From NCBI RefSeq assembly GCF_044324875.1, contig NZ_CP172187.1: 64,000 bases of DNA, one strand, 5' to 3'. The notes under the pieces were generated by a model. That model saw only the letters and a program-made list of their open reading frames with translations, was not told where the DNA came from and searched no databases. The DNA is from Escherichia coli (GTDB lineage: Bacteria > Pseudomonadota > Gammaproteobacteria > Enterobacterales > Enterobacteriaceae). Position numbers and translations under genes: made by a program. Positions 1 to 24,625 of this stretch are shown in pieces. Within the stretch, counting starts at the first letter, position 1; every line of letters starts with the position of its first letter.

Positions 1-858
1 GTGACTGATCTTCAACAAACGTATTACCGCCAGGTAAAGAACCCGAATCCGGTATTTACACCCCGTGAAGGTGCCGGAACGCTGAAGTTTTGCGAAAAAC
101 TGATGGAAAAGGCGGTGGGCTTCACCTCCCGTTTTGATTTCGCCATTCATGTGGCACACGCCCGTTCGCGTGGTCTGCGCCGGCGCATGCCGCCGGTACT
201 GCGTCGACGGGCCATTGATGCGCTGCTGCAGGGGCTGTGTTTCCACTATGACCCGCTGGCCAACCGCGTCCAGTGCTCCATCACCACACTGGCCATTGAG
301 TGCGGACTGGCGACGGAGTCTGCTGCCGGAAAACTCTCTATCACCCGTGCCACCCGCGCCCTGACGTTCCTCGCAGAGCTGGGCCTGATTACCTACCAGA
401 CGGAATATGACCCGCTTATCGGGTGCTACATTCCGACCGACATCACGTTCACACCGGCACTGTTTGCCGCTCTCGATGTGTCTGAGGTGGCGGTGGCAGC
501 TGCGCGCCGCAGTCGTGTGGAATGGGAAAACAGACAGCGCAAGAAGCAGGGACTGGATGCACTGGGTATGGATGAACTGATAGCGAAAGCCTGGCGTTTT
601 GTGCGTGAGCGTTTCCGCAGTTACCAGACAGAGCTTAAGTCCCGGGGAATAAAGCGTGCCCGTGCGCGTCGTGATGCGGACAGGGAACGTCAGGATATTG
701 TCACCCTGGTGAAACGGCAGCTGACGCGCGAAATCGCGGAAGGGCGCTTCACTGCTAATCGTGAGGCAGTAAAACGCGAAGTGGAGCGTCGTGTGAAGGA
801 GCGCATGATTCTGTCACGTAACCGTAATTACAGCCGGCTGGCCACAGCTTCCCCCTGA
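1..858 (+). CDS. repA1: IncFII replication initiator RepA1 (complete, GTG start at window position 1)
   Basis: 285 aa ORF recognised as near-identical to the R100/NR1 RepA1 sequence ([29 protein letters not shown]...). Confidence 0.9.
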
Positions 859-999
859 AAGTGACCTCCTCAGAATAATCCGGCCCGCGCCGGAGGCATT
901 CGCACGCCTGAAGCCTGTCAGCGAACAAAAAAGCAGCACTGCATACAAAAAACAATCTCATCATCCCCCTTCAGGTGCATCCGGTTCCCCCTGTTTTTG

Positions 1000-1260
1000 A
1001 TGCAAAACACCTCTCACAGACGGGGAATTTTGCTTGTCCACATTTAACTGCAAGGGACTTCCCCATAAGGTTACAACCGTTCATGCCATAAAGCGCCAGC
1101 CGACAGCCTTACAGGGTGCAATGTATCTTTTAAACACCAGTTTATATCTCCTTTAAACTACCTAATTACATTCATTTAAAAAGAAAACCTGTTCACTGCC
1201 TGTCCTGTGGACAGACAGATAGCACCTCCCACCGCAAGCGGCGGGCCCCCACCGGAGCCA
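1000..1260. other. IncFII vegetative origin oriR region (approximate)
   Basis: Lies just downstream of repA1; DnaA-box-like TTGTCCACA near 1024 and inverted TGTGGACAG near 1208; AT-rich stretch. Confidence 0.4.
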
Positions 1261-1820
1261 TTTTAGTTACAACACTCAAATACAACCACCAGGAAAACCC
1301 CGGTCCAGCGCAGAACCGAAACAACAAAGCCCCTCCCTCATAACTTAAAAGCGGCCCCGCCCCGGCCCGAAGGGCCGGAACAGAGTCGCTTTTAATTATG
1401 AATGTTGTAACTACATCTTCATCGCTGTCAGTCTTCTCGCTGGAAGTTCTCAGTACACGCTCGTAAGCGGCCCTCACGGCCCGCTAACGCGGAGATACGC
1501 CCCGACTTCGGGTAAACCCTCGTCGGGACCACTCCGACCGCGCACAGAAGCTCTATCATGGCTGAAAACGGGTATGGTCTGGCAGGGCTGGGGATAGGTA
1601 AGGTGAAATCTATCAATCAGTACCGGCTTACGCCGGGCTTCGGCGGTTTTACTCCTGTGCCATATGTAGCCACATCATGCCGCCTTCCATGCCGCTGGCG
1701 CGGCATATACCGGCAGTACAGCTATCTGTGTTTGATAGTATTTAAAGCGACGTTTTTTTCTTGAACCTGTGTCACTTATAAGAGACAATATACACAGGTT
1801 AAGGGAATGAGGGCGGCAAG

Positions 1821-2156
1821 ATGCCTTACACGGCGAAACGATATCAGACAGAAAACGGTGAGATCCCATACACCGACTGGATGAAAAAATTAAGACGCAA
1901 AGACCAGGCCGCAGCGTTAAAGGTGGATTCCAGAATTGCCCGCGCTATGAGCGGAAATTTCGGAGATCATAAATTTGAAAGGGACGGTGTCTGGGAATTA
2001 CGGATTGATTACGGTCCTGGTTACAGGGTTTATTATTCAATCGAAGATGGCGAAATAATTCTTCTGCTCATTGGCGGGAATAAAAAAACTCAGACAGCCG
2101 ATTTAGATAAAGCCGTTAGTTATCTGCAAGATTTTAAAAAGAGGTCAAAAAAATGA
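1821..2156 (+). CDS. Type II toxin, RelE/ParE superfamily (HigB-like, toxin-first arrangement)
   Basis: 111 aa; motif VWELRIDYGPGYRVYY...IILLLIGGNK typical of killer proteins; 4-bp overlap with the following HTH gene. Confidence 0.7.
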   Translation: MPYTAKRYQTENGEIPYTDWMKKLRRKDQAAALKVDSRIARAMSGNFGDHKFERDGVWELRIDYGPGYRVYYSIEDGEIILLLIGGNKKTQTADLDKAVSYLQDFKKRSKK

Positions 2157-2503
2157 CAGCCACCAAAAATGTGAAGGCGCAGAAAAATGGTTATCCGGCA
2201 TCCGTTGATCACAATGCCGCCATGATTGAAGAATTGCGCGCAGATCCTGATTATGCAAACGCTTATCTTGCTAATGCCCTGGAAGAAATAAACGAGCCTG
2301 GTGGTTTAGGCGGTTTTCTTGTTGCGCTACGTCAGGTCATCGAGGCGCGAGGGGGGATTTCCGAAGCTGCCAGGAAATCTGGCCTTGCCCGTCAGAGTAT
2401 TTACCGCGCATTATCCCCGAACGGGAATCCGACCATCACAACACTTGCACAACTTACATCAGTAGCCGGATTACAGTTCACTCTCAGTAAATCCAGCCAC
2501 TAA
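2153..2503 (+). CDS. HigA-family HTH antitoxin (addiction module antidote)
   Basis: 116 aa with C-terminal helix-turn-helix (EAARKSGLARQSIYRAL); translationally coupled to the upstream toxin. Confidence 0.7.
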   Translation: MTATKNVKAQKNGYPASVDHNAAMIEELRADPDYANAYLANALEEINEPGGLGGFLVALRQVIEARGGISEAARKSGLARQSIYRALSPNGNPTITTLAQLTSVAGLQFTLSKSSH

Positions 2504-3221
2504 TCTCTCCGGTTCCCCCTGAGCGGGGGAATTTCACTGGCACTTATTGCGGGGAACAAAACCATCGGACGGGGGAAACATCTGTATTTCTGTGTGTCCT
2601 GGTGTAATACGGTGGATTTGTGTGTGTCTGGAAGCTTAATGCTAATGTATGCGTACATTAGCATTAAGCCTGTTTTCCCGTCGTGTCGGGGTCAGTCTGG
2701 GAAACGTACAATATTGTGTGTTTCTTGCTGTAGGGGAACGAGGTAACGTTTACACACTCGCGAGTGAGCGGATGAAATAATATCTCATTCAGTACTCTTT
2801 TTATCTGCTGCCGTTTTTTCCGGTGATTTTTTTTCTGCATACAGAAAAAAAGCCTGCCCGGAGGGCAGGCATGAAAGACAATCGCACAGTCAGTGTTGAA
2901 ATTAATGATGTCACGCATTTTCCCGGCGGATACACAAACCATCCCGGCCAGTACCGGCGGCATCGTAATCAACGTCTGCGGGCTGTGCAATGCTCTTTTT
3001 GCTGATTTAAGATAAAGTTATTACAGCCCCTGACGGAGACGAAAACAACGGCAGACAATATACGGGAAATATAATCAGACCGTTTTAATATTATTTCCAG
3101 GAACGCGACGAAGTCAGGCAGATTTATATATTTCTGGCCGGGCTGACATTCCGGATTGGTGTATATAATAATACGTTTGTGATATATTTATAATCGGTTT
3201 TATTATGTTGCCGGGGTATTT

Positions 3222-3643
3222 ATGGCCAGGAATCAGGAAAAGAAAACGCCCGTCATTGTGGTGAAAAAACGTCGCGTTATTTCACCTCCTGTCGTCGATA
3301 AAACAGAGACTGTCATTCCGCCTGTACCGGAAGTGGCGGTACCACCGGCAGCTGCTGATGCGCAGCTGCCAGCCCCCATCCCGGATGCGTCTCCTGCGCC
3401 TGCTGCCGTCGGAAAGAAAAGGAAAGGAAGACCACCACGCAGGCCCCTCAGAGAGCACTGGACACGGGAGTTCACCGACCAGTGCATGGAAAAGGTCAAG
3501 GCAATTTTCCCGCATCTTCGCGCTGAAGGCGGCGGTTTTCTGCCTCTCAGGGTCGGTATCTCCCGCGATATTACTGCCTGGCTGGCTGAGCACCCTGAAG
3601 CCGGACTCACCCGGGATGAATGGGACTGTGCCGTATCCTGTAT
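3222..3643 (+). pseudogene. ProQ/FinO-family RNA-chaperone gene, 5-prime part, interrupted by the Tn1721 left IR
   Basis: ORF runs into the IR at 3644; resumes in frame at 30015 with a FinO-like C-terminus. Confidence 0.6.
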
Positions 3644-3681
3644 GGGGGAACCGCAGAATTCGGAAAAAATCGTACGCTAAG
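3644..3681. repeat. Tn1721 terminal inverted repeat (left)
   Basis: GGGGGAACCGCAGAATTCGGAAAAAATCGTACGCTAAG. Confidence 0.8.
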
Positions 3682-5150: not shown

Positions 5151-5165
5151 GGTAATGACTCCAAC

Positions 5166-5669
5166 TTATTGATAGTGTTTTATGTTCAGATAATGCCCGA
5201 TGACTTTGTCATGCAGCTCCACCGATTTTGAGAACGACAGCGACTTCCGTCCCAGCCGTGCCAGGTGCTGCCTCAGATTCAGGTTATGCCGCTCAATTCG
5301 CTGCGTATATCGCTTGCTGATTACGTGCAGCTTTCCCTTCAGGCGGGATTCATACAGCGGCCAGCCATCCGTCATCCATATCACCACGTCAAAGGGTGAC
5401 AGCAGGCTCATAAGACGCCCCAGCGTCGCCATAGTGCGTTCACCGAATACGTGCGCAACAACCGTCTTCCGGAGCCTGTCATACGCGTAAAACAGCCAGC
5501 GCTGGCGCGATTTAGCCCCGACATAGCCCCACTGTTCGTCCATTTCCGCGCAGACGATGACGTCACTGCCCGGCTGTATGCGCGAGGTTACCGACTGCGG
5601 CCTGAGTTTTTTAAGTGACGTAAAATCGTGTTGAGGCCAACGCCCATAATGCGGGCAGTTGCCCGGCAT
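5166..5669 (-). CDS. insB: IS1 InsB (transposase is made as InsAB by frameshifting)
   Basis: 167 aa ORF recognised as IS1 InsB. Confidence 0.9.
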
Positions 5670-5863
5670 CCAACGCCATTCATGGCCATATCAATGATTT
5701 TCTGGTGCGTACCGGGTTGAGAAGCGGTGTAAGTGAACTGCAGTTGCCATGTTTTACGGCAGTGAGAGCAGAGATAGCGCTGATGTCCGGCGGTGCTTTT
5801 GCCGTTACGCACCACCCCGTCAGTAGCTGAACAGGAGGGACAGCTGATAGAAACAGAAGCCAC
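5588..5863 (-). CDS. insA: IS1 InsA
   Basis: 91 aa, [42 protein letters not shown]... Confidence 0.9.
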
Positions 5864-6054
5864 TGGAGCACCTCAAAAACACCATCATACACTAAATCAG
5901 TAAGTTGGCAGCATCACCTAGGATTACAGGGGCATTCAGTTGAAAGGCGGCCCAGCCACTGGCATCACATACAGCGGATGTCACATTTGAACCGTCAATA
6001 CAAGCAATCACATTTGTCATCGTTTTATTCCTTTGTTGTTGTGTTGCTAATGGC

Positions 6055-6630
6055 TTAGTGACCAGACATCATTTTTTCAACTTCTTCTGGCTTATCGTGT
6101 ACCCCAAATTTATCGACTATGGTGGCACTGGCTTCGTTAAGGCCAATCAACTCAACCTCAGTCCCCTCGCGGCGGAATTTAATCACTACCTTGTCGAGGG
6201 CCGATACCGCGGTAATATCCCAAAAATGTGCTTGAGATAAGTCGATAGTCACTTTATCAACCACTTCCCTAAAATCGAATGAATTACTGAACTTATCTGA
6301 TGAAGCAAAAAAGACTTGTCCAATAACCTGATAATGGCGACCAGTGTCAGCAGCAGTCGTTGTACTCTTAACCACCATAAAACGTCCCACTTTATTAGCA
6401 AAAAATAGGGACGCGAGTAATACACCTACAAATACCCCAATTGCTAAGTTATGGGTAGCGACCACGACCACAACCGTCGCCACCATCACAAGGTTGGTTG
6501 ACATAGGATGATGCTTAAGATTACGGATTGAATCCCAAGAGAATGTACCGATAGCCACCATGATCATCACGGCAACCAGTGCCGCCATAGGAATAAGCTT
6601 TAACCACTCTCCTAAAAACACCACCATCAC
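6055..6630 (-). pseudogene. SulP-family anion transporter, C-terminal fragment (last TM helices and STAS domain)
   Basis: 191 aa; hydrophobic N-part then STAS-like tail; no N-terminal permease core upstream. Confidence 0.55.
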
Positions 6631-6775
6631 AAGTAAAAAAACGCCTGCAGCGAAGGATGATAAACGTCCGCGACCACCCGATTTAACGTTGATGATCGAA
6701 TGTCAATAAATTCAAAATTCAATCCTATCCTGACGCAATTTACACATGGCATCTGACATCAGGTTAGGGTATGCC

Positions 6776-7126
6776 TCAACCTGACGGCGGCGAATCACAA
6801 GCGTCCGGTTTGACGCTGGTTTCGGTCGCAGTGCTGGCCCGCGCCTGGAAGCGCTGATAGCACTCCAGCCCGCAGAAATGCTCCACGTACTCGGCCCCTT
6901 CCGGCGTGAAGGCGGCATCGAGCGGGATTTCCTTGCAGCACACGCAGCAACTGGTGCTCGGTTCATTGGCGTTCATGGTGGTGTTCCTCCATTGGTTGAC
7001 GAAGCCGACGAAGGCCGCCGCCGGCATCGGCCTGGCGAACAGGAAACCCTGCACCGTGTCGCAACCCGCCTGCCGCAACCACGCAAGGCAGTCGGGTGTT
7101 TCCACACCCTCGGCTACCACCTCCAT
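6776..7126 (-). pseudogene. tnpM: Tn21 urf2M, 3-prime part (EAL-domain tail plus tnpM portion), separated from its 5-prime part by the integron
   Basis: Translation starts immediately outside IRi: [46 protein letters not shown]... Confidence 0.65.
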
Positions 7127-7328
7127 TGTCGTTTTCAGAAGACGGCTGCACTGAACGTCAGAAGCCGACTGCACTATAGCAGCGGAGGGGTTGGATCCAT
7201 CAGGCAACGACGGGCTGCTGCCGGCCATCAGCGGACGCAGGGAGGACTTTCCGCAACCGGCCGTTCGATGCGGCACCGATGGCCTTCGCGCAGGGGTAGT
7301 GAATCCGCCAGGATTGACTTGCGCTGCC

Positions 7329-8342
7329 CTACCTCTCACTAGTGAGGGGCGGCAGCGCATCAAGCGGTGAGCGCACTCCGGCACCGCCAACTTTCAGCAC
7401 ATGCGTGTAAATCATCGTCGTAGAGACGTCGGAATGGCCGAGCAGATCCTGCACGGTTCGAATGTCGTAACCGCTGCGGAGCAAGGCCGTCGCGAACGAG
7501 TGGCGGAGGGTGTGCGGTGTGGCGGGCTTCGTGATGCCTGCTTGTTCTACGGCACGTTTGAAGGCGCGCTGAAAGGTCTGGTCATACATGTGATGGCGAC
7601 GCACGACACCGCTCCGTGGATCGGTCGAATGCGTGTGCTGCGCAAAAACCCAGAACCACGGCCAGGAATGCCCGGCGCGCGGATACTTCCGCTCAAGGGC
7701 GTCGGGAAGCGCAACGCCGCTGCGGCCCTCGGCCTGGTCCTTCAGCCACCATGCCCGTGCACGCGACAGCTGCTCGCGCAGGCTGGGTGCCAAGCTCTCG
7801 GGTAACATCAAGGCCCGATCCTTGGAGCCCTTGCCCTCCCGCACGATGATCGTGCCGTGATCGAAATCCAGATCCTTGACCCGCAGTTGCAAACCCTCAC
7901 TGATCCGCATGCCCGTTCCATACAGAAGCTGGGCGAACAAACGATGCTCGCCTTCCAGAAAACCGAGGATGCGAACCACTTCATCCGGGGTCAGCACCAC
8001 CGGCAAGCGCCGCGACGGCCGAGGTCTTCCGATCTCCTGAAGCCAGGGCAGATCCGTGCACAGCACCTTGCCGTAGAAGAACAGCAAGGCCGCCAATGCC
8101 TGACGATGCGTGGAGACCGAAACCTTGCGCTCGTTCGCCAGCCAGGACAGAAATGCCTCGACTTCGCTGCTGCCCAAGGTTGCCGGGTGACGCACACCGT
8201 GGAAACGGATGAAGGCACGAACCCAGTGGACATAAGCCTGTTCGGTTCGTAAGCTGTAATGCAAGTAGCGTATGCGCTCACGCAACTGGTCCAGAACCTT
8301 GACCGAACGCAGCGGTGGTAACGGCGCAGTGGCGGTTTTCAT
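7329..8342 (-). CDS. intI1: Class 1 integron integrase IntI1
   Basis: 337 aa tyrosine recombinase recognised as IntI1 ([41 protein letters not shown]...). Confidence 0.95.
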
Positions 8343-18374: not shown

Positions 18375-18809
18375 ATGGAAAATAATTTGGAAAACCTGAC
18401 CATTGGCGTTTTTGCCAAGGCGGCCGGGGTCAACGTGGAGACAATCCGCTTCTATCAGCGCAAGGGCCTGTTGCGGGAACCGGACAAGCCTTACGGCAGC
18501 ATCCGCCGCTATGGGGAGGCGGACGTGGTTCGGGTGAAATTCGTGAAATCGGCACAGCGGCTGGGGTTCAGTCTGGACGAGATTGCCGAGCTGTTGCGGC
18601 TCGACGATGGCACCCACTGCGAGGAGGCCAGCAGCCTGGCCGAACACAAGCTCAAGGACGTGCGCGAGAAGATGGCCGACTTGGCGCGCATGGAAACCGT
18701 GCTGTCTGAACTCGTGTGCGCCTGCCATGCACGAAAGGGGAATGTTTCCTGCCCGTTGATCGCGTCACTACAGGGCGAAGCAGGCCTGGCAAGGTCAGCT
18801 ATGCCTTAG
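18375..18809 (+). CDS. merR: Mercury-responsive regulator MerR (divergent from merTPCADE)
   Basis: 144 aa [33 protein letters not shown]... Confidence 0.9.
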
Positions 18810-18842
18810 CGTGCTTTATTTTCCGTTTTCTGAGGTGCCCCC
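18805..18842. repeat. Tn21 terminal inverted repeat (mer end)
   Basis: Reverse complement of GGGGGCACCTCAGAAAACGGAAAATAAAGCACGCTAAG. Confidence 0.8.
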
Positions 18843-19560
18843 TAATTGAGCATTTCCAGGCGCTTGCGCCTGGTCAACGAAAGAGTCAGCGCCGTAGGCG
18901 CTGCCATTTTTGGGGTGAGGCCGTTCGCGGCCGAGGGGCGCAGCCCCTGGGGGGATGGGAGGCCCGCGTTAGCGGGCCGGGAGGGTTCGAGAAGGGGGGG
19001 CACCCCCCTTCGGCGTGCGCGGTCACGCGCACAGGGCGCAGCCCTGGTTAAAAACAAGGTTTATAAATATTGGTTTAAAAGCAGGTTAAAAGACAGGTTA
19101 GCGGTGGCCGAAAAACGGGCGGAAACCCTTGCAAATGCTGGATTTTCTGCCTGTGGACAGCCCCTCAAATGTCAATAGGTGCGCCCCTCATCTGTCAGCA
19201 CTCTGCCCCTCAAGTGTCAAGGATCGCGCCCCTCATCTGTCAGTGAGGGCCAAGTTTTCCGCGAGGTATCCACAACGCCGGCGGCCGCGGTGTCTCGCAC
19301 ACGGCTTCGACGGCGTTTCTGGCGCGTTTGCAGGGCCATAGACGGCCGCCAGCCCAGCGGCGAGGGCAACCAGCCCGGTGAGCGTCGGAAAGGCGCTGGA
19401 AGCCCCGTAGCGACGCGGAGAGGGGCGAGACAAGCCAAGGGCGCAGGCTCGATGCGCAGCACGACATAGCCGGTTCTCGCAAGGACGAGAATTTCCCTGC
19501 GGTGCCCCTCAAGTGTCAATGAAAGTTTCCAACGCGAGCCATTCGCGAGAGCCTTGAGTC
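18843..19560. other. IncP-1alpha (RK2/RP4)-type oriV segment: GC-rich block, AT-rich block, DnaA box and 17-bp iterons
   Basis: Iterons CCCCTCAAATGTCAATA / CCCCTCATCTGTCAGCA / CCCCTCAAGTGTCAAGG / CCCCTCATCTGTCAGTG at 19160-19260 plus one near 19505; TGTGGACAG DnaA box at ~19150; no trfA in window. Confidence 0.7.
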
Positions 19561-19869
19561 CACGCTAGATCTATCTCATCTGCGCAAGGCAGAACGTGAA
19601 GACGGCCGCCCTGGACCTCGCCCGCGAGCGCCAGGCGCACGAGGCCGGCGCGCGGACCCGCGCCACGGCCCACGAGCGGACGCCGCAGCAGGAGCGCCAG
19701 AAGGCCGCCAGAGAGGCCGAGCGCGGCCGTGAGGCTTGGACGCTAGGGCAGGGCATGAAAAAGCCCGTAGCGGGCTGCTACGGGCGTCTGACGCGGTGGA
19801 AAGGGGGAGGGGATGTTGTCTACATGGCTCTGCTGTAGTGAGTGGGTTGCGCTCCGGCAGCGGTCCTGA

Positions 19870-20520
19870 TCAATCGTCACCCTTTCTCGGTCCTTCAACG
19901 TTCCTGACAACGAGCCTCCTTTTCGCCAATCCATCGACAATCACCGCGAGTCCCTGCTCGAACGCTGCGTCCGGACCGGCTTCGTCGAAGGCGTCTATCG
20001 CGGCCCGCAACAGCGGCGAGAGCGGAGCCTGTTCAACGGTGCCGCCGCGCTCGCCGGCATCGCTGTCGCCGGCCTGCTCCTCAAGCACGGCCCCAACAGT
20101 GAAGTAGCTGATTGTCATCAGCGCATTGACGGCGTCCCCGGCCGAAAAACCCGCCTCGCAGAGGAAGCGAAGCTGCGCGTCGGCCGTTTCCATCTGCGGT
20201 GCGCCCGGTCGCGTGCCGGCATGGATGCGCGCGCCATCGCGGTAGGCGAGCAGCGCCTGCCTGAAGCTGCGGGCATTCCCGATCAGAAATGAGCGCCAGT
20301 CGTCGTCGGCTCTCGGCACCGAATGCGTATGATTCTCCGCCAGCATGGCTTCGGCCAGTGCGTCGAGCAGCGCCCGCTTGTTCCTGAAGTGCCAGTAAAG
20401 CGCCGGCTGCTGAACCCCCAACCGTTCCGCCAGTTTGCGTGTCGTCAGACCGTCTACGCCGACCTCGTTCAACAGGTCCAGGGCGGCACGGATCACTGTA
20501 TTCGGCTGCAACTTTGTCAT
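19870..20520 (-). CDS. tetR: Tetracycline repressor TetR(A)
   Basis: MTKLQPNTVIRAALDLLNEVGVDGLTTRKLAERLGVQQPALYWHF...; divergent from tetA. Confidence 0.9.
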   Translation of the reverse strand: MTKLQPNTVIRAALDLLNEVGVDGLTTRKLAERLGVQQPALYWHFRNKRALLDALAEAMLAENHTHSVPRADDDWRSFLIGNARSFRQALLAYRDGARIHAGTRPGAPQMETADAQLRFLCEAGFSAGDAVNALMTISYFTVGAVLEEQAGDSDAGERGGTVEQAPLSPLLRAAIDAFDEAGPDAAFEQGLAVIVDGLAKRRLVVRNVEGPRKGDD

Positions 20521-20625
20521 GCTTGACACTTTATCACTGATAAACATAATATGTCCACCAACTTATCAGTGATAAAGAATCCGCGCGTTCAATCGGACCA
20601 GCGGAGGCTGGTCCGGAGGCCAGAC

Positions 20626-21825
20626 GTGAAACCCAACAGACCCCTGATCGTAATTCTGAGCACTGTCGCGCTCGACGCTGTCGGCATCGGCCTGATTATG
20701 CCGGTGCTGCCGGGCCTCCTGCGCGATCTGGTTCACTCGAACGACGTCACCGCCCACTATGGCATTCTGCTGGCGCTGTATGCGTTGATGCAATTTGCCT
20801 GCGCACCTGTGCTGGGCGCGCTGTCGGATCGTTTCGGGCGGCGGCCGGTCTTGCTCGTCTCGCTGGCCGGCGCTGCTGTCGACTACGCCATCATGGCGAC
20901 GGCGCCTTTCCTTTGGGTTCTCTATATCGGGCGGATCGTGGCCGGCATCACCGGGGCGACTGGGGCGGTAGCCGGCGCTTATATTGCCGATATCACTGAT
21001 GGCGATGAGCGCGCGCGGCACTTCGGCTTCATGAGCGCCTGTTTCGGGTTCGGGATGGTCGCGGGACCTGTGCTCGGTGGGCTGATGGGCGGTTTCTCCC
21101 CCCACGCTCCGTTCTTCGCCGCGGCAGCCTTGAACGGCCTCAATTTCCTGACGGGCTGTTTCCTTTTGCCGGAGTCGCACAAAGGCGAACGCCGGCCGTT
21201 ACGCCGGGAGGCTCTCAACCCGCTCGCTTCGTTCCGGTGGGCCCGGGGCATGACCGTCGTCGCCGCCCTGATGGCGGTCTTCTTCATCATGCAACTTGTC
21301 GGACAGGTGCCGGCCGCGCTTTGGGTCATTTTCGGCGAGGATCGCTTTCACTGGGACGCGACCACGATCGGCATTTCGCTTGCCGCATTTGGCATTCTGC
21401 ATTCACTCGCCCAGGCAATGATCACCGGCCCTGTAGCCGCCCGGCTCGGCGAAAGGCGGGCACTCATGCTCGGAATGATTGCCGACGGCACAGGCTACAT
21501 CCTGCTTGCCTTCGCGACACGGGGATGGATGGCGTTCCCGATCATGGTCCTGCTTGCTTCGGGTGGCATCGGAATGCCGGCGCTGCAAGCAATGTTGTCC
21601 AGGCAGGTGGATGAGGAACGTCAGGGGCAGCTGCAAGGCTCACTGGCGGCGCTCACCAGCCTGACCTCGATCGTCGGACCCCTCCTCTTCACGGCGATCT
21701 ATGCGGCTTCTATAACAACGTGGAACGGGTGGGCATGGATTGCAGGCGCTGCCCTCTACTTGCTCTGCCTGCCGGCGCTGCGTCGCGGGCTTTGGAGCGG
21801 CGCAGGGCAACGAGCCGATCGCTGA
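20626..21825 (+). CDS. tetA: Tetracycline efflux MFS transporter TetA(A) (GTG start)
   Basis: 399 aa, (M/V)KPNRPLIVILSTVALDAVGIGLIMPVLPGLLRDL... Confidence 0.9.
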   Translation: MKPNRPLIVILSTVALDAVGIGLIMPVLPGLLRDLVHSNDVTAHYGILLALYALMQFACAPVLGALSDRFGRRPVLLVSLAGAAVDYAIMATAPFLWVLYIGRIVAGITGATGAVAGAYIADITDGDERARHFGFMSACFGFGMVAGPVLGGLMGGFSPHAPFFAAAALNGLNFLTGCFLLPESHKGERRPLRREALNPLASFRWARGMTVVAALMAVFFIMQLVGQVPAALWVIFGEDRFHWDATTIGISLAAFGILHSLAQAMITGPVAARLGERRALMLGMIADGTGYILLAFATRGWMAFPIMVLLASGGIGMPALQAMLSRQVDEERQGQLQGSLAALTSLTSIVGPLLFTAIYAASITTWNGWAWIAGAALYLLCLPALRRGLWSGAGQRADR

Positions 21826-21856
21826 TCGTGGAAACGATAGGCCTATGCCATGCGGG

Positions 21857-22639
21857 TCAAGGCGACTTCCGGCAAGCTATACGCGCCCTAGGAGTGCGGT
21901 TGGAACGTTGGCCCAGCCAGATACTCCCGATCACGAGCAGGACGCCGATGATTTGAAGCGCACTCAGCGTCTGATCCAAGAACAACCATCCTAGCAACAC
22001 GGCGGTCCCCGGGCTGAGAAAGCCCAGTAAGGAAACAACTGTAGGTTCGAGTCGCGAGATCCCCCGGAACCAAAGGAAGTAGGTTAAACCCGCTCCGATC
22101 AGGCCGAGCCACGCCAGGCCGAGAACATTGGTTCCTGTAGGCATCGGGATTGGCGGATCAAACACTAAAGCTACTGGAACGAGCAGAAGTCCTCCGGCCG
22201 CCAGTTGCCAGGCGGTAAAGGTGAGCAGAGGCACGGGAGGTTGCCACTTGCGGGTCAGCACGGTTCCGAACGCCATGGAAACCGCCCCCGCCAGGCCCGC
22301 TGCGACGCCGACAGGATCTAGCGCTGCGTTTGGTGTCAACACCAACAGCGCCACGCCCGCAGTTCCGCAAATAGCCCCCAGGACCGCCATCAATCGTATC
22401 GGGCTACCTAGCAGAGCGGCAGAGATGAACACGACCATCAGCGGCTGCACAGCGCCTACCGTCGCCGCGACCCCGCCCGGCAGGCGGTAGACCGAAATAA
22501 ACAACAAGCTCCAGAATAGCGAAATATTAAGTGCGCCGAGGATGAAGATGCGCATCCACCAGATTCCCGTTGGAATCTGTCGGACGATCATCACGAGCAA
22601 TAAACCCGCCGGCAACGCCCGCAGCATCGCGACCGTCAT
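21857..22639 (-). CDS. pecM: EamA-family (PecM-like) transporter of the Tn1721 tet module
   Basis: 260 aa polytopic membrane protein; position after tetA as in Tn1721; start lies 76 bp from the Tn2/Tn3 IR. Confidence 0.7.
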   Translation of the reverse strand: MTVAMLRALPAGLLLVMIVRQIPTGIWWMRIFILGALNISLFWSLLFISVYRLPGGVAATVGAVQPLMVVFISAALLGSPIRLMAVLGAICGTAGVALLVLTPNAALDPVGVAAGLAGAVSMAFGTVLTRKWQPPVPLLTFTAWQLAAGGLLLVPVALVFDPPIPMPTGTNVLGLAWLGLIGAGLTYFLWFRGISRLEPTVVSLLGFLSPGTAVLLGWLFLDQTLSALQIIGVLLVIGSIWLGQRSNRTPRARIACRKSP

Positions 22640-22861
22640 CGGTGAGAAGTTCGGCAGGTATTGGGTGGTGACAATGTAGGTGCTGCCCCAAATGGCAGGT
22701 GCTATCGCTGTGAAGGGGTCTGACGCTCAGTGGAACGAAAACTCACGTTAAGGGATTTTGGTCATGAGATTATCAAAAAGGATCTTCACCTAGATCCTTT
22801 TAAATTAAAAATGAAGTTTTAAATCAATCTAAAGTATATATGAGTAAACTTGGTCTGACAG

Positions 22862-23734
<873 letters not shown>

Positions 23735-23904
23735 TCAATATTATTGAAGCATTTATCAGGGTTATTGTCTCATGAGCGGATACATATTTGAATGTATTTA
23801 GAAAAATAAACAAATAGGGGTTCCGCGCACATTTCCCCGAAAAGTGCCACCTGACGTCTAAGAAACCATTATTATCATGACATTAACCTATAAAAATAGG
23901 CGTA

Positions 23905-24625
<721 letters not shown>

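What the first reader, a model, noticed from the sequence alone, without database searches (positions are those of the whole stretch)
18843..19560. RK2/RP4-type oriV (iterons, DnaA box, AT-rich and GC-rich blocks) between the Tn21 mer IR and tetR
Immediately after the Tn21 mer IR lies a sequence I recognise as the IncP-1alpha vegetative origin: GC-rich block, AT-rich block, TGTGGACAG DnaA box and four clustered 17-bp iterons plus a fifth near 19505, followed by tetR/tetA as in RK2. No trfA is present in the window. This is either a captured broad-host-range origin that could fire if TrfA is supplied in trans, or a sign of chimeric or vector-derived sequence (RK2-derived vectors carry exactly oriV plus tetRA).
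Basis: partly seen in the sequence, partly recalled or inferred. Interest (0 to 1): 0.6.

Follow-up and report, generated by a model that had tools for sequence, protein, structure and literature searches.

The report
Orphan IncP-1α oriV relic beside tet(A)
A partly deleted copy of the replication origin of the broad-host-range plasmid RK2/RP4, without its initiator gene, sits between a mercury-resistance transposon end and the tetracycline-resistance genes; it is a real, widespread and already published passenger fragment, not a working origin or a cloning artefact.

Summary
Window 18843-19570 is 100% identical to the IncP-1α (RK2/RP4/pBS228-type) oriV region, apart from one precise 216-bp deletion. 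That deletion joins two identical 18-bp iteron copies. It removes iterons 3-5 and the DnaA-box cluster, and leaves four clustered iterons plus the isolated iteron 1. The segment starts directly after the Tn21-type IRmer (18805-18842). It runs on without a break into tetR-tetA, as in IncP-1α plasmids. Canonical Tn1721 homology starts only at 19571, so the segment is not part of Tn1721. The window has no trfA; its replicon is IncFII/F-like.

The IRmer|oriV junction occurs in 294 PLSDB plasmids and in 149 of 5,426 complete E. coli genomes. The exact 216-bp deletion allele occurs in 58 plasmids. This rules out vector contamination or an assembly chimera. The Tn21-oriV(IncP-1α)-ΔTn1721 arrangement, including iteron-deletion variants, was published by Venturini et al. 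2013 (PMC3817090).

The most likely reading is an inert hitch-hiking relic. At most it is a TrfA-binding site and a stretch of homology to IncP-1α plasmids. New here: the whole 26.4-kb resistance region (3644-30014) is bounded by Tn1721 inverted repeats with a 5-bp target duplication (TGTAT). Novelty: already known. Interest: low.

The parts
18375..18809 (+). merR of the Tn21-type mer module (context, left neighbour)
   Evidence: Annotation of the identical stretch in NZ_CP033632 carried over by offset; ORF list.
18805..18842 (-). 38-bp terminal inverted repeat IRmer of a Tn21-family transposon; its outer end abuts oriV at 18842|18843
   Evidence: Sequence read directly. The junction query 18790-18900 is found over at least 80% of its length in 294 PLSDB records and in 149 of 5,426 E. 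coli genomes.
18843..19570 (-). IncP-1α backbone segment (oriV region) not present in canonical Tn1721; native oriV reads on the minus strand here
   Evidence: 100% identical to pMNCN064 L002 6001-6402 and 6601-6944, with a 216-bp gap. Also 100% identical to pBS228 in this stretch. Canonical Tn1721 IRRI joins at 19570|19571.
18900..19045 (.). GC-rich block of oriV
   Evidence: 73-80% GC in 60-bp windows; identical to IncP-1α.
19046..19105 (.). AT-rich block (DNA-unwinding element of RK2 oriV), intact
   Evidence: 35-45% GC. Short A/T-rich direct repeats GGTTAAAAxCAGGTT (family D4). Identical to IncP-1α.
19152..19160 (+). DnaA-box-like 9-mer TGTGGACAG between the AT-rich block and the iterons
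   Evidence: 7 of 9 match to TGTGGATAA; the same site is in pMNCN064 at 6310-6318.
19160..19244 (-). Cluster of four TrfA iterons (RK2 iterons 9, 8, 7 and a 6/2 hybrid); cores at 19160-74, 19183-97, 19205-19, 19228-42
   Evidence: The native plasmid has five iterons here (L002 6318-6423).
19227..19244 (.). Crossover point of the 216-bp deletion: the 18-bp perfect repeat CGCCCCTCATCTGTCAGT shared by iterons 6 and 2. The deleted DNA held iterons 5, 4 and 3 and the DnaA boxes TTATCCCCA, TTGTCCACA and TGTGGGAAA
   Evidence: Prefix/suffix comparison with pMNCN064. The identical deletion junction is in 58 PLSDB records.
19266..19274 (+). DnaA-box-like GTATCCACA (8 of 9 to consensus), brought to 24 bp from the iteron cluster by the deletion
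   Evidence: the native position is L002 6640-6648, beyond iteron 2.
19504..19518 (-). Isolated iteron 1
   Evidence: It corresponds to L002 6878-6892.
19571..22713 (.). tet module shared with canonical Tn1721 and with IncP-1α: ORF 19596-19838, tetR(A) 19870-20520 (minus), tetA(A) 20626-21825 (plus), pecM/EamA 21857-22713 (minus, interrupted by Tn2)
   Evidence: 100% identical to Tn1721 in L010. 100% identical to pMNCN064 up to 21826. Identical to pBS228 up to 22626 except 7 SNPs in tetA. Annotation; EamA match.
22714..27664 (.). Tn2 (blaTEM-1, tnpR, tnpA) inserted in pecM, with 5-bp duplication GTGAA (22709-13 and 27665-69)
27665..30014 (.). Remainder of ΔTn1721: 5' end of pecM, a hydrolase fragment, truncated tnpA (28161-29981) and IRRII (29977-30014)
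   Evidence: 100% identical to L010 8193-10542; Tn3-family transposase C-terminal part; IR read directly.
3644..3681 (+). Tn1721 IRL, left end of the 26,371-bp unit 3644-30014 that contains the oriV relic; flanked by 5-bp direct repeats TGTAT (3639-43 and 30015-19)
   Evidence: Sequences read directly; blastn match to the Tn1721 IR.

Best explanation
Window 18843-19570 is a hitch-hiking fragment of an IncP-1α (RK2/RP4/pBS228-type) plasmid backbone: the vegetative origin oriV, orphaned from its initiator gene trfA. How it got there is inferred as follows. A Tn21-family mercury transposon inserted about 57 bp outside the GC-rich end of oriV in an IncP-1α plasmid that carried oriV-tetR-tetA-pecM. 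Recombination within the tet/pecM sequence shared with Tn1721 then joined the mer end, oriV and the tet module to the ΔtnpA-IRRII end of Tn1721. After that the fragment travelled as internal cargo of a Tn21/Tn1721 hybrid resistance region. In this lineage, recombination or replication slippage between two identical 18-bp iteron copies (iterons 6 and 2) deleted 216 bp. This removed iterons 3-5 and the DnaA-box cluster. In this window the whole 26.4-kb region (3644-30014) sits in an IncFII/F-type plasmid as one Tn1721-ended unit with a 5-bp target duplication. Functionally the relic is most likely silent. Without TrfA nothing can open the AT-rich element. With TrfA supplied in trans, the loss of the DnaA-box cluster, where DnaA-DnaBC is first positioned in E. 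coli, probably prevents or strongly impairs firing in enterobacteria. What it can still do is inferred. Its five intact iterons can bind TrfA. Together with tetRA-pecM it also offers about 3.7 kb of perfect homology for recombination with a co-resident IncP-1α plasmid.
For: Shown. The segment is 100% identical to IncP-1α oriV on both sides of a precise 216-bp gap whose ends lie in an 18-bp perfect repeat. IncP-1α identity continues through tetR-tetA to 21826 in pMNCN064 with 0 differences, and to 22626 in pBS228. The canonical Tn1721 IRRI joins at 19570|19571, so 18843-19570 lies outside Tn1721. The outer end of IRmer abuts oriV exactly where window and IncP-1α sequences begin to agree. No TrfA is encoded in the window, and the backbone is IncFII RepA with an F-like leading and tra region. 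The IRmer|oriV junction is in 294 PLSDB plasmids and in 149 of 5,426 complete E. coli genomes, including 65 chromosomal places. The Δ216 junction is in 58 plasmids from six genera, 74-423 kb in size. IncP-1α-type TrfA (at least 99% identity) is in only 20 PLSDB records, and none of the 18 listed is among the 58. The TGTAT duplications flank 3644-30014. Published. The Tn21-oriV(IncP-1α)-ΔTn1721 region was described with an intact origin in pO111-CRL115 and a 160-bp iteron/DnaA-box deletion in pO26-CRL125, and was judged non-functional for lack of trfA (PMC3817090; PMC6780720). [quoted passage not shown]
Against: No experiment was done here on this allele. Four iterons with native spacing to an intact AT-rich element remain. 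The deletion also brings a good DnaA box (GTATCCACA, 8 of 9) to 24 bp from the iteron cluster, so residual TrfA-dependent activity cannot be excluded. DnaA is dispensable for RK2 in Pseudomonas (PMC4980987, Table 1). Only the window was searched for trfA, not the rest of the genome. The progenitor IncP-1α::Tn21 plasmid with the reciprocal junction was not found (0 records). No SNP separates the IncP-1α-type from the Tn1721-type tet sequence here. The recombination history is therefore inferred, not shown.
Confidence: 0.8

Rival explanations
1. Conditional origin. The fragment is a captured broad-host-range origin that still fires when TrfA is supplied in trans, for example by a co-resident IncP-1α plasmid, and so gives the host replicon a second, broad-host-range mode of replication.
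For: The AT-rich element, the GC-rich block, four correctly spaced iterons and two DnaA-box-like sites are intact. DnaA is dispensable for RK2 replication in Pseudomonas (PMC4980987). Full-length oriV copies exist at the same junction in other plasmids (about four fifths of the roughly 320 full-coverage hits in the spread sample).
Against: Iteron 5 of the minimal five-iteron cluster and the whole DnaA-box cluster are deleted. [quoted passage not shown] There is no trfA in the window. The cognate trfA is rare (20 PLSDB records) compared with the relic (294 records with the junction). The relic tolerates deletions (Δ216 here, Δ160 in pO26-CRL125) and sits in E. coli chromosomes at 65 places. Both points argue against selection for origin function.
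Confidence: 0.1
2. TrfA sink or incompatibility determinant. The orphan iterons are kept because they titrate or handcuff TrfA, and so destabilise or exclude incoming IncP-1α plasmids.
For: Five perfect iterons are retained. From my own knowledge of the RK2 literature, not checked here, cloned oriV iterons inhibit RK2 replication in trans (Thomas et al. 1981; Kittell and Helinski 1991).
Against: The iteron number is reduced by deletion in two independent alleles (PMC3817090), which points to drift rather than selection. The host plasmids are low-copy F or I types, so the iteron dose is small. No co-occurrence or exclusion data were obtained.
Confidence: 0.08
3. Artefact. The stretch is contamination from an RK2-derived cloning vector (oriV plus tetRA) or an assembly chimera at 18842|18843.
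For: RK2-derived vectors do carry oriV and tetRA, and PLSDB holds such vectors (H57, H347-H349).
Against: The identical junction and the identical deletion occur in hundreds of independently sequenced complete plasmids and chromosomes from several genera and countries and in published natural plasmids. The vector oriV cassette begins and ends elsewhere (window-equivalent 18900-19244, then on into iteron 5, H57). The left junction is the exact outer end of a transposon IR. The segment lies inside a unit with intact target-site duplications.
Confidence: 0.01
4. The segment is simply an integral part of canonical Tn1721.
For: The tetR-tetA-pecM-ΔtnpA-IRRII part is 100% identical to Tn1721, and Tn1721 IRL is present at 3644.
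Against: In canonical Tn1721 (L010) the IRRI of the Tn1722 part abuts the tet module at the position equivalent to 19571. Nothing equivalent to 18843-19570 is present there.
Confidence: 0.01

Closest known systems
oriV of IncP-1α plasmids RK2/RP4/RP1, pBS228 and pMNCN064
   Same: 100% nucleotide identity over 402 + 344 bp. It has the same GC-rich block, AT-rich unwinding element, iterons 9-6 and 1, and the same continuation into tetR-tetA (and into pecM as in pBS228).
   Different: 216 bp are missing (iterons 5, 4 and 3, one copy of the 6/2 iteron, and the DnaA-box cluster). Iteron 10 and the klcA side are cut off by IRmer. There is no trfA, ssb, kor or tra backbone. The fragment sits in an IncFII/F plasmid.
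Tn21-oriV(IncP-1α)-ΔTn1721 complex resistance locus of pO111-CRL115 and pO26-CRL125 (Venturini et al. 2013, PMC3817090; also Wyrsch et al. 2019, PMC6780720)
   Same: The same three-part arrangement: the mer end of a Tn21 derivative, IncP-1α oriV, then tetR-tetA-pecM-ΔtnpA-IRtet of Tn1721. There is no trfA, and iteron-bounded deletion variants of the oriV occur.
   Different: The deletion here is 216 bp (iterons 5, 4, 3 and the 6/2 fusion), not 160 bp (iterons 5 and 4) or none. The left end is Tn1721 IRL-mcp, truncated by IS1, instead of Tn21 IRtnp. The integron cassettes are dfrA1-aadA1 in the near-identical p135-2, not dfrA5/Tn6026. Tn2 is inserted in pecM. A 5-bp target duplication is present here, whereas the paper reports none. 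The backbone is IncFII/F instead of IncZ/I1. I could not fetch KC340959/KC340960 to compare junctions base by base.
Canonical Tn1721 (Tn1722 plus tet module)
   Same: IRL, part of mcp, and tetR-tetA-pecM-ΔtnpA-IRRII are 100% identical.
   Different: tnpR-tnpA-IRRI of the Tn1722 part are replaced by IS1, a class 1 integron/Tn21 mer module and the IncP-1α oriV segment. The IRRI|tet junction at 19571 is absent.
oriV cassettes of RK2-derived cloning vectors
   Same: They contain the same GC-rich block, AT-rich block and iterons 9-6 (H57: 100% over window-equivalent 18900-19244).
   Different: The vectors keep iteron 5 and the DnaA boxes, carry trfA (H347-H349) and have engineered boundaries. None has the IRmer junction.

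Membership tests
IncP-1α (RK2/RP4) oriV | Nucleotide homology to RK2-type oriV, including the GC-rich and AT-rich blocks | tested here: met
   100% identity to pMNCN064 and pBS228 over 18843-19244 and 19227-19570; composition profile.
IncP-1α (RK2/RP4) oriV | 17-bp TrfA iterons with core TGACANNTGAGGGGC | tested here: met
   Five exact cores, against 0.11 expected by chance.
IncP-1α (RK2/RP4) oriV | Complete minimal origin: the five-iteron cluster (iterons 5-9) next to the AT-rich element | tested here: not met
   Only four iterons remain; iteron 5 was lost in the 216-bp deletion.
IncP-1α (RK2/RP4) oriV | Cluster of DnaA boxes immediately upstream of the five iterons | tested here: not met
   TTATCCCCA, TTGTCCACA and TGTGGGAAA (L002 6438-6472) lie in the deleted 216 bp. 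Only TGTGGACAG (19152) and GTATCCACA (19266) remain.
IncP-1α (RK2/RP4) oriV | Cognate initiator TrfA available | tested here: not met
   tblastn of TrfA1 against the window gave a best E of 0.41. No other IncP backbone DNA is present. The rest of the genome is not available.
IncP-1α (RK2/RP4) oriV | TrfA-dependent initiation of replication | not testable with these tools
   Needs a replication assay.
Tn21-oriV-ΔTn1721 hybrid resistance region (Venturini 2013) | Tn21-type IRmer directly followed by IncP-1α oriV | tested here: met
   Junction at 18842|18843. It is shared by 294 PLSDB records.
Tn21-oriV-ΔTn1721 hybrid resistance region (Venturini 2013) | oriV-to-tetR junction as in pBS228, followed by tetR-tetA-pecM-ΔtnpA-IR of Tn1721 | tested here: met
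   Colinear with pBS228 to 22626. 100% identical to Tn1721 over 19571-22714 and 27665-30014.
Tn21-oriV-ΔTn1721 hybrid resistance region (Venturini 2013) | Base-for-base identity of junctions with pO26-CRL125 and pO111-CRL115 | not tested
   KC340959 and KC340960 are not in the collections. Only the paper's description was used.
Canonical Tn1721 | Tn1722 tnpA-IRRI abutting the tet module at the position equivalent to 19571 | tested here: not met
   The window has IncP-1α sequence to the left of 19571; L010 has IRRI there.
RK2-derived vector oriV cassette | Engineered oriV boundaries and linked trfA | tested here: not met
   The vector match covers only 18900-19244 and then diverges (H57). No trfA was found.

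The most novel reading that the evidence does not exclude
The Δ216 orphan oriV is not inert. With four native-spaced iterons, an intact unwinding element and a DnaA box newly placed beside the iterons, it would still respond to TrfA from a visiting IncP-1α plasmid. It could act as a helper-dependent broad-host-range origin, notably in Pseudomonas where the DnaA boxes are dispensable. Alternatively it could act as a TrfA sink that destabilises IncP-1α competitors. Either would give this very common resistance region (about 3% of complete E. coli genomes) an unrecognised interaction with IncP-1 plasmids.
Probability: 0.12. Interest if true: 0.45.

Novelty: already known. Interest (0 to 1): 0.12.

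Why it matters
The main value is for annotation. This oriV should not be read as evidence of an IncP replicon, of a multi-replicon plasmid, or of vector contamination. Replicon-typing or contamination screens that key on RK2 oriV will flag it falsely in roughly 3% of complete E. coli genomes. It also records history: the widespread Tn21/Tn1721 tet(A)-mer resistance region passed through an IncP-1α plasmid. Its iterons are recombination-prone, giving allele markers (intact, Δ160, Δ216) that can be used to trace lineages of this resistance region. If the relic still binds TrfA, it could influence co-residence with IncP-1α plasmids, but nothing here shows that.

Tried and rejected
1. I searched for the progenitor junction, meaning the IncP-1α klcA-side flank plus the presumed TAATT duplication plus Tn21 IRtnp. 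No PLSDB record covers at least 80% of that query. The original IncP-1α::Tn21 plasmid is therefore not in that collection, or the other end was lost.

2. I tried to locate the recombination crossover between IncP-1α-type and Tn1721-type tet sequence from SNPs. This was impossible: the window is 100% identical to both pMNCN064 and the Tn1721 copy in L010 over the shared stretch. Only pBS228 differs, by 7 SNPs in tetA.

3. I tried to fetch pO26-CRL125 and pO111-CRL115 (KC340960, KC340959) for a base-level comparison. They are not in the collections.

4. Plasmids whose match starts at window 19396 looked at first like canonical Tn1721. They turned out to carry a Tn5393-type IR at that point (pSN254 and pP13-67). 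The large class starting at 19571 includes both true Tn1721 (L010) and a different Tn3-family miniature IR (IncN pA56-1S).

5. Vector contamination or chimerism was rejected. Being part of Tn1721 was rejected.

6. The ORF at 19596-19838, named 'transposase' or 'relaxase' in public records, has no NCBIfam match and was not pursued.

7. The first two Python calls failed because several loci are stored in one FASTA file. This had no bearing on the results.

Full report

Yes. The sequence at 18805-18842 is the 38-bp IRmer of a Tn21-family transposon, read on the minus strand as GGGGGCACCTCAGAAAACGGAAAATAAAGCACGCTAAG. It follows merR (18375-18809) directly.

- From 18843 the window is 100% identical to the oriV region of the IncP-1α plasmid pMNCN064 (LC623901, typed IncP, with klcA on one side and trfA on the other) and of pBS228.
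- The GC-rich block (about 18900-19045, 73-80% GC) and the AT-rich block (about 19046-19105, 35-45% GC) are evident in the composition profile.
- The iteron core GCCCCTCANNTGTCA occurs exactly five times in the 64-kb window, all within the finding: 19160-74, 19183-97, 19205-19, 19228-42 and 19504-18.
- Shuffled sequence gives 0.11 such matches on average, and never five.
- TGTGGACAG is at 19152-19160.
- tetR(A) (19870-20520, minus strand) and tetA(A) (20626-21825) follow.
- A tblastn with the full TrfA1 protein finds nothing in the window (best E = 0.41). No other IncP backbone DNA is present.

**2.

I compared window 18843-19570 (728 bp) with the native 944-bp stretch of pMNCN064.

- The two share a common prefix of 402 bp and a common suffix of 344 bp. 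These overlap by an 18-bp perfect repeat, CGCCCCTCATCTGTCAGT (19227-19244).
- The native origin has iteron 1 alone, then iterons 2-4, then a DnaA-box cluster (TTATCCCCA, TTGTCCACA, TGTGGGAAA), then iterons 5-9, then the AT-rich and GC-rich blocks. A tenth, inverted iteron lies further out.
- The window therefore carries a deletion between iterons 6 and 2. It removed iterons 5, 4 and 3, one copy of the 6/2 repeat and the whole DnaA-box cluster.
- Iteron 10 lies beyond the IRmer junction and is also absent. Five of the ten iterons remain.
- A deletion whose ends lie in a perfect direct repeat is the signature of homologous recombination or replication slippage between iterons.
- The 98-bp sequence across the deletion point is found at 100% identity in 58 PLSDB plasmids. 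They come from Escherichia, Salmonella, Klebsiella, Citrobacter, Shigella and Enterobacter, and range from 74 to 423 kb. The deletion is thus an inherited, disseminated allele and not an assembly error.

**3. Where each homology starts and ends**

- Identity to IncP-1α starts at 18843, exactly at the outer end of IRmer. To the left, the IncP plasmid continues towards klcA while the window continues into the IR.
- To the right, identity to pMNCN064 is perfect through tetR and tetA up to 21826. There the IncP plasmid turns towards trfA.
- pBS228 stays colinear up to 22626, inside pecM, with 7 SNPs in tetA.
- A canonical Tn1721 (Aeromonas plasmid NZ_CP121792: tnpR-tnpA-IRRI-tetR-tetA-pecM) matches the window at 100% only from 19571. 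Its IRRI abuts that position.
- So 18843-19570 is IncP-1α backbone that canonical Tn1721 does not contain. The true right boundary is 19570 rather than 19560.

**4. Context**

- The window's own replicon is an IncFII-family RepA (1-858). It also has ParA, UmuDC and an F-like leading and transfer region.
- The oriV relic lies inside a 26,371-bp unit (3644-30014).
- The unit starts with Tn1721 IRL (3644-3681) and the mcp gene, which is truncated by IS1. A class 1 integron and a Tn21-type tni/urf2/mer module follow. In the near-identical p135-2 the integron is annotated dfrA1-aadA1-qacEΔ1-sul1.
- Then come IRmer, the oriV relic and tetR-tetA-pecM. Tn2 (blaTEM-1) is inserted in pecM with a GTGAA duplication.
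- The unit ends with the truncated Tn1721 tnpA and IRRII (29977-30014).
- The unit is flanked by a perfect 5-bp direct repeat, TGTAT, at 3639-3643 and 30015-30019. The whole resistance region, oriV relic included, therefore arrived at this site by Tn1721-type transposition.

**5. Artefact or biology?**

- The 111-bp IRmer|oriV junction is present, over at least 80% of its length, in 294 PLSDB plasmids.
- It is also present in 149 of 5,426 complete E. coli genomes, with 85 plasmid and 65 chromosomal places.
- RK2-derived vectors in PLSDB match only window-equivalent 18900-19244 and then continue into iteron 5 (H57). They also carry trfA.
- Vector contamination or a chimeric assembly is therefore excluded for practical purposes.

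**6. Prior knowledge**

- Venturini et al. 2013 (PMC3817090) described exactly this arrangement in pO111-CRL115 and pO26-CRL125. [quoted passage not shown]
- In their plasmids trfA is absent and the oriV-to-tet junction is as in pBS228.
- One plasmid has an intact origin with nine iterons. [quoted passage not shown]
- They judged the origin non-functional for lack of trfA. Wyrsch et al. 2019 (PMC6780720) repeat the description.
- The window carries a further allele (Δ216) in a different outer configuration. It has a Tn1721 IRL end, a target duplication, Tn2 in pecM and an IncF backbone. The feature itself is already known.

**7. How it most likely works**

Shown: the element is an orphan. It has no trfA in cis, no IncP backbone, and a different resident replicon.

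From the literature (review PMC4980987):
- RK2 initiation needs TrfA bound to the iterons.
- In E. coli it also needs DnaA at the four DnaA boxes, where DnaB-DnaC is first positioned before transfer to the unwound AT-rich element.
- DnaA and DnaC are absolutely required in E. coli. Inverting a single DnaA box abolishes replication.
- In Pseudomonas, DnaA is dispensable.

Inferred: without TrfA the relic is silent. Even with TrfA in trans, the Δ216 allele is probably dead or crippled in enterobacteria.

Caveats:
- Four iterons keep their native spacing to an intact unwinding element.
- The deletion has moved a good DnaA box (GTATCCACA, 19266-19274) to 24 bp from the iteron cluster.
- Residual helper-dependent activity, especially in Pseudomonas, therefore cannot be excluded.

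Other plausible but untested consequences are TrfA titration or handcuffing by the five iterons (from my knowledge of the RK2 literature) and homologous recombination with a co-resident IncP-1α plasmid over about 3.7 kb (18843-22626).

Three observations argue against selection for origin function:
- The relic has decayed by deletion at least twice.
- It sits in chromosomes.
- It outnumbers its cognate initiator: 294 junction-bearing plasmids and 1,373 plasmids with any part of it, against 20 with IncP-1α TrfA.

**8. History (inferred)**

- A Tn21-family element inserted next to oriV in an IncP-1α plasmid of the pBS228 type.
- Recombination within the tet/pecM sequence shared with Tn1721 then linked it to Tn1721 ends.
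- I could not find the reciprocal junction of the original insertion.
- No SNPs mark the crossover.
- This step therefore remains a model, consistent with the one proposed by Venturini et al.

**9. Verdict**

The feature is a known, common, most probably inert IncP-1α oriV relic. Novelty: already known. Interest: low (0.12). Its main practical importance is to avoid mis-calling an IncP replicon or vector contamination.

Noticed in passing
window 3639-30019: The whole 26,371-bp resistance region is bounded by Tn1721 IRL (3644-3681) and IRRII (29977-30014). It runs IRL-mcp, IS1, class 1 integron, Tn21 tni/mer, oriV relic, tetRA, pecM::Tn2, ΔtnpA. It is flanked by a perfect 5-bp duplication, TGTAT, so it moved as one Tn1721-ended unit even though it now lacks an intact Tn1721 transposase. 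Venturini et al. reported no duplications for their version.
   Followed up: partly
window 22709-27669: Tn2 (blaTEM-1, tnpR, tnpA) is inserted in pecM with the 5-bp duplication GTGAA. Canonical Tn1721 is uninterrupted at this point.
   Followed up: yes
window 19316, 19396 and 19571 (compared with L004, L003/L006, L009/L010): Ends of different Tn3-family elements abut the oriV-tetR interval in other plasmids. A Tn5393-type IR sits at 19316 (p1079) and at 19396 (pSN254 and other IncC plasmids, pP13-67). Both Tn1721 IRRI (L010) and an unrelated miniature Tn3-family IR pair flanking tetRA in IncN pA56-1S (L009 6967-7000 and 9927-9965) sit at exactly 19571. The shared 19571 boundary for two different IRs is unexplained.
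   Followed up: partly
L013 3950-4300 (IncHI2 pGENC213) versus window 19420-19890: A diverged tet determinant (roughly 84-90% identity upstream of tetR) is colinear with the window across the 19570|19571 Tn1721 boundary. It includes a degenerate copy of iteron 1 (GCCCCACAAGTATCA). This suggests the uninterrupted, IncP-like arrangement is ancestral, and that the left end of the Tn1721 tet module was created by a Tn1722 insertion into it.
   Followed up: partly
PLSDB records NZ_CP024192, NZ_CP024564, NZ_CP024557 and others: Large K. pneumoniae and Serratia plasmids (184-222 kb) hold the klcA-side flank of IncP-1α oriV as well. They therefore carry larger IncP-1α backbone fragments, with full-length oriV, than the IRmer-bounded relic does.
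   Followed up: no
E. coli complete genomes: 65 of the 150 occurrences of the IRmer|oriV junction are on chromosomes. The Tn21/oriV/tet(A) region is therefore often chromosomally integrated in E. coli.
   Followed up: no
window 19596-19838 (+): An 80-aa arginine-rich ORF between iteron 1 and tetR is annotated as 'transposase' (WP_000844627.1) or 'relaxase' in public records. It has no NCBIfam match, so the name looks like an annotation artefact.
   Followed up: partly
window 5151-7390: IS1 truncates the Tn1721 mcp gene. Between IS1 and intI1 lie a C-terminal SulP-transporter fragment (6055-6630, about 76% nucleotide identity to the SulP gene of the Tn3-family element in pBS228) and an EAL-domain fragment (6776-7390, probably Tn21 tnpM). 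The origin of this joint was not resolved.
   Followed up: no
window 1-2668 versus p135-2 (L008): The repA-side flank is only about 91% identical to the IncK2/Z plasmid p135-2, whereas 2664-25000, including about 1 kb outside IRL, is essentially identical. The resistance unit together with a piece of flanking backbone therefore appears to have been exchanged between different replicons.
   Followed up: no
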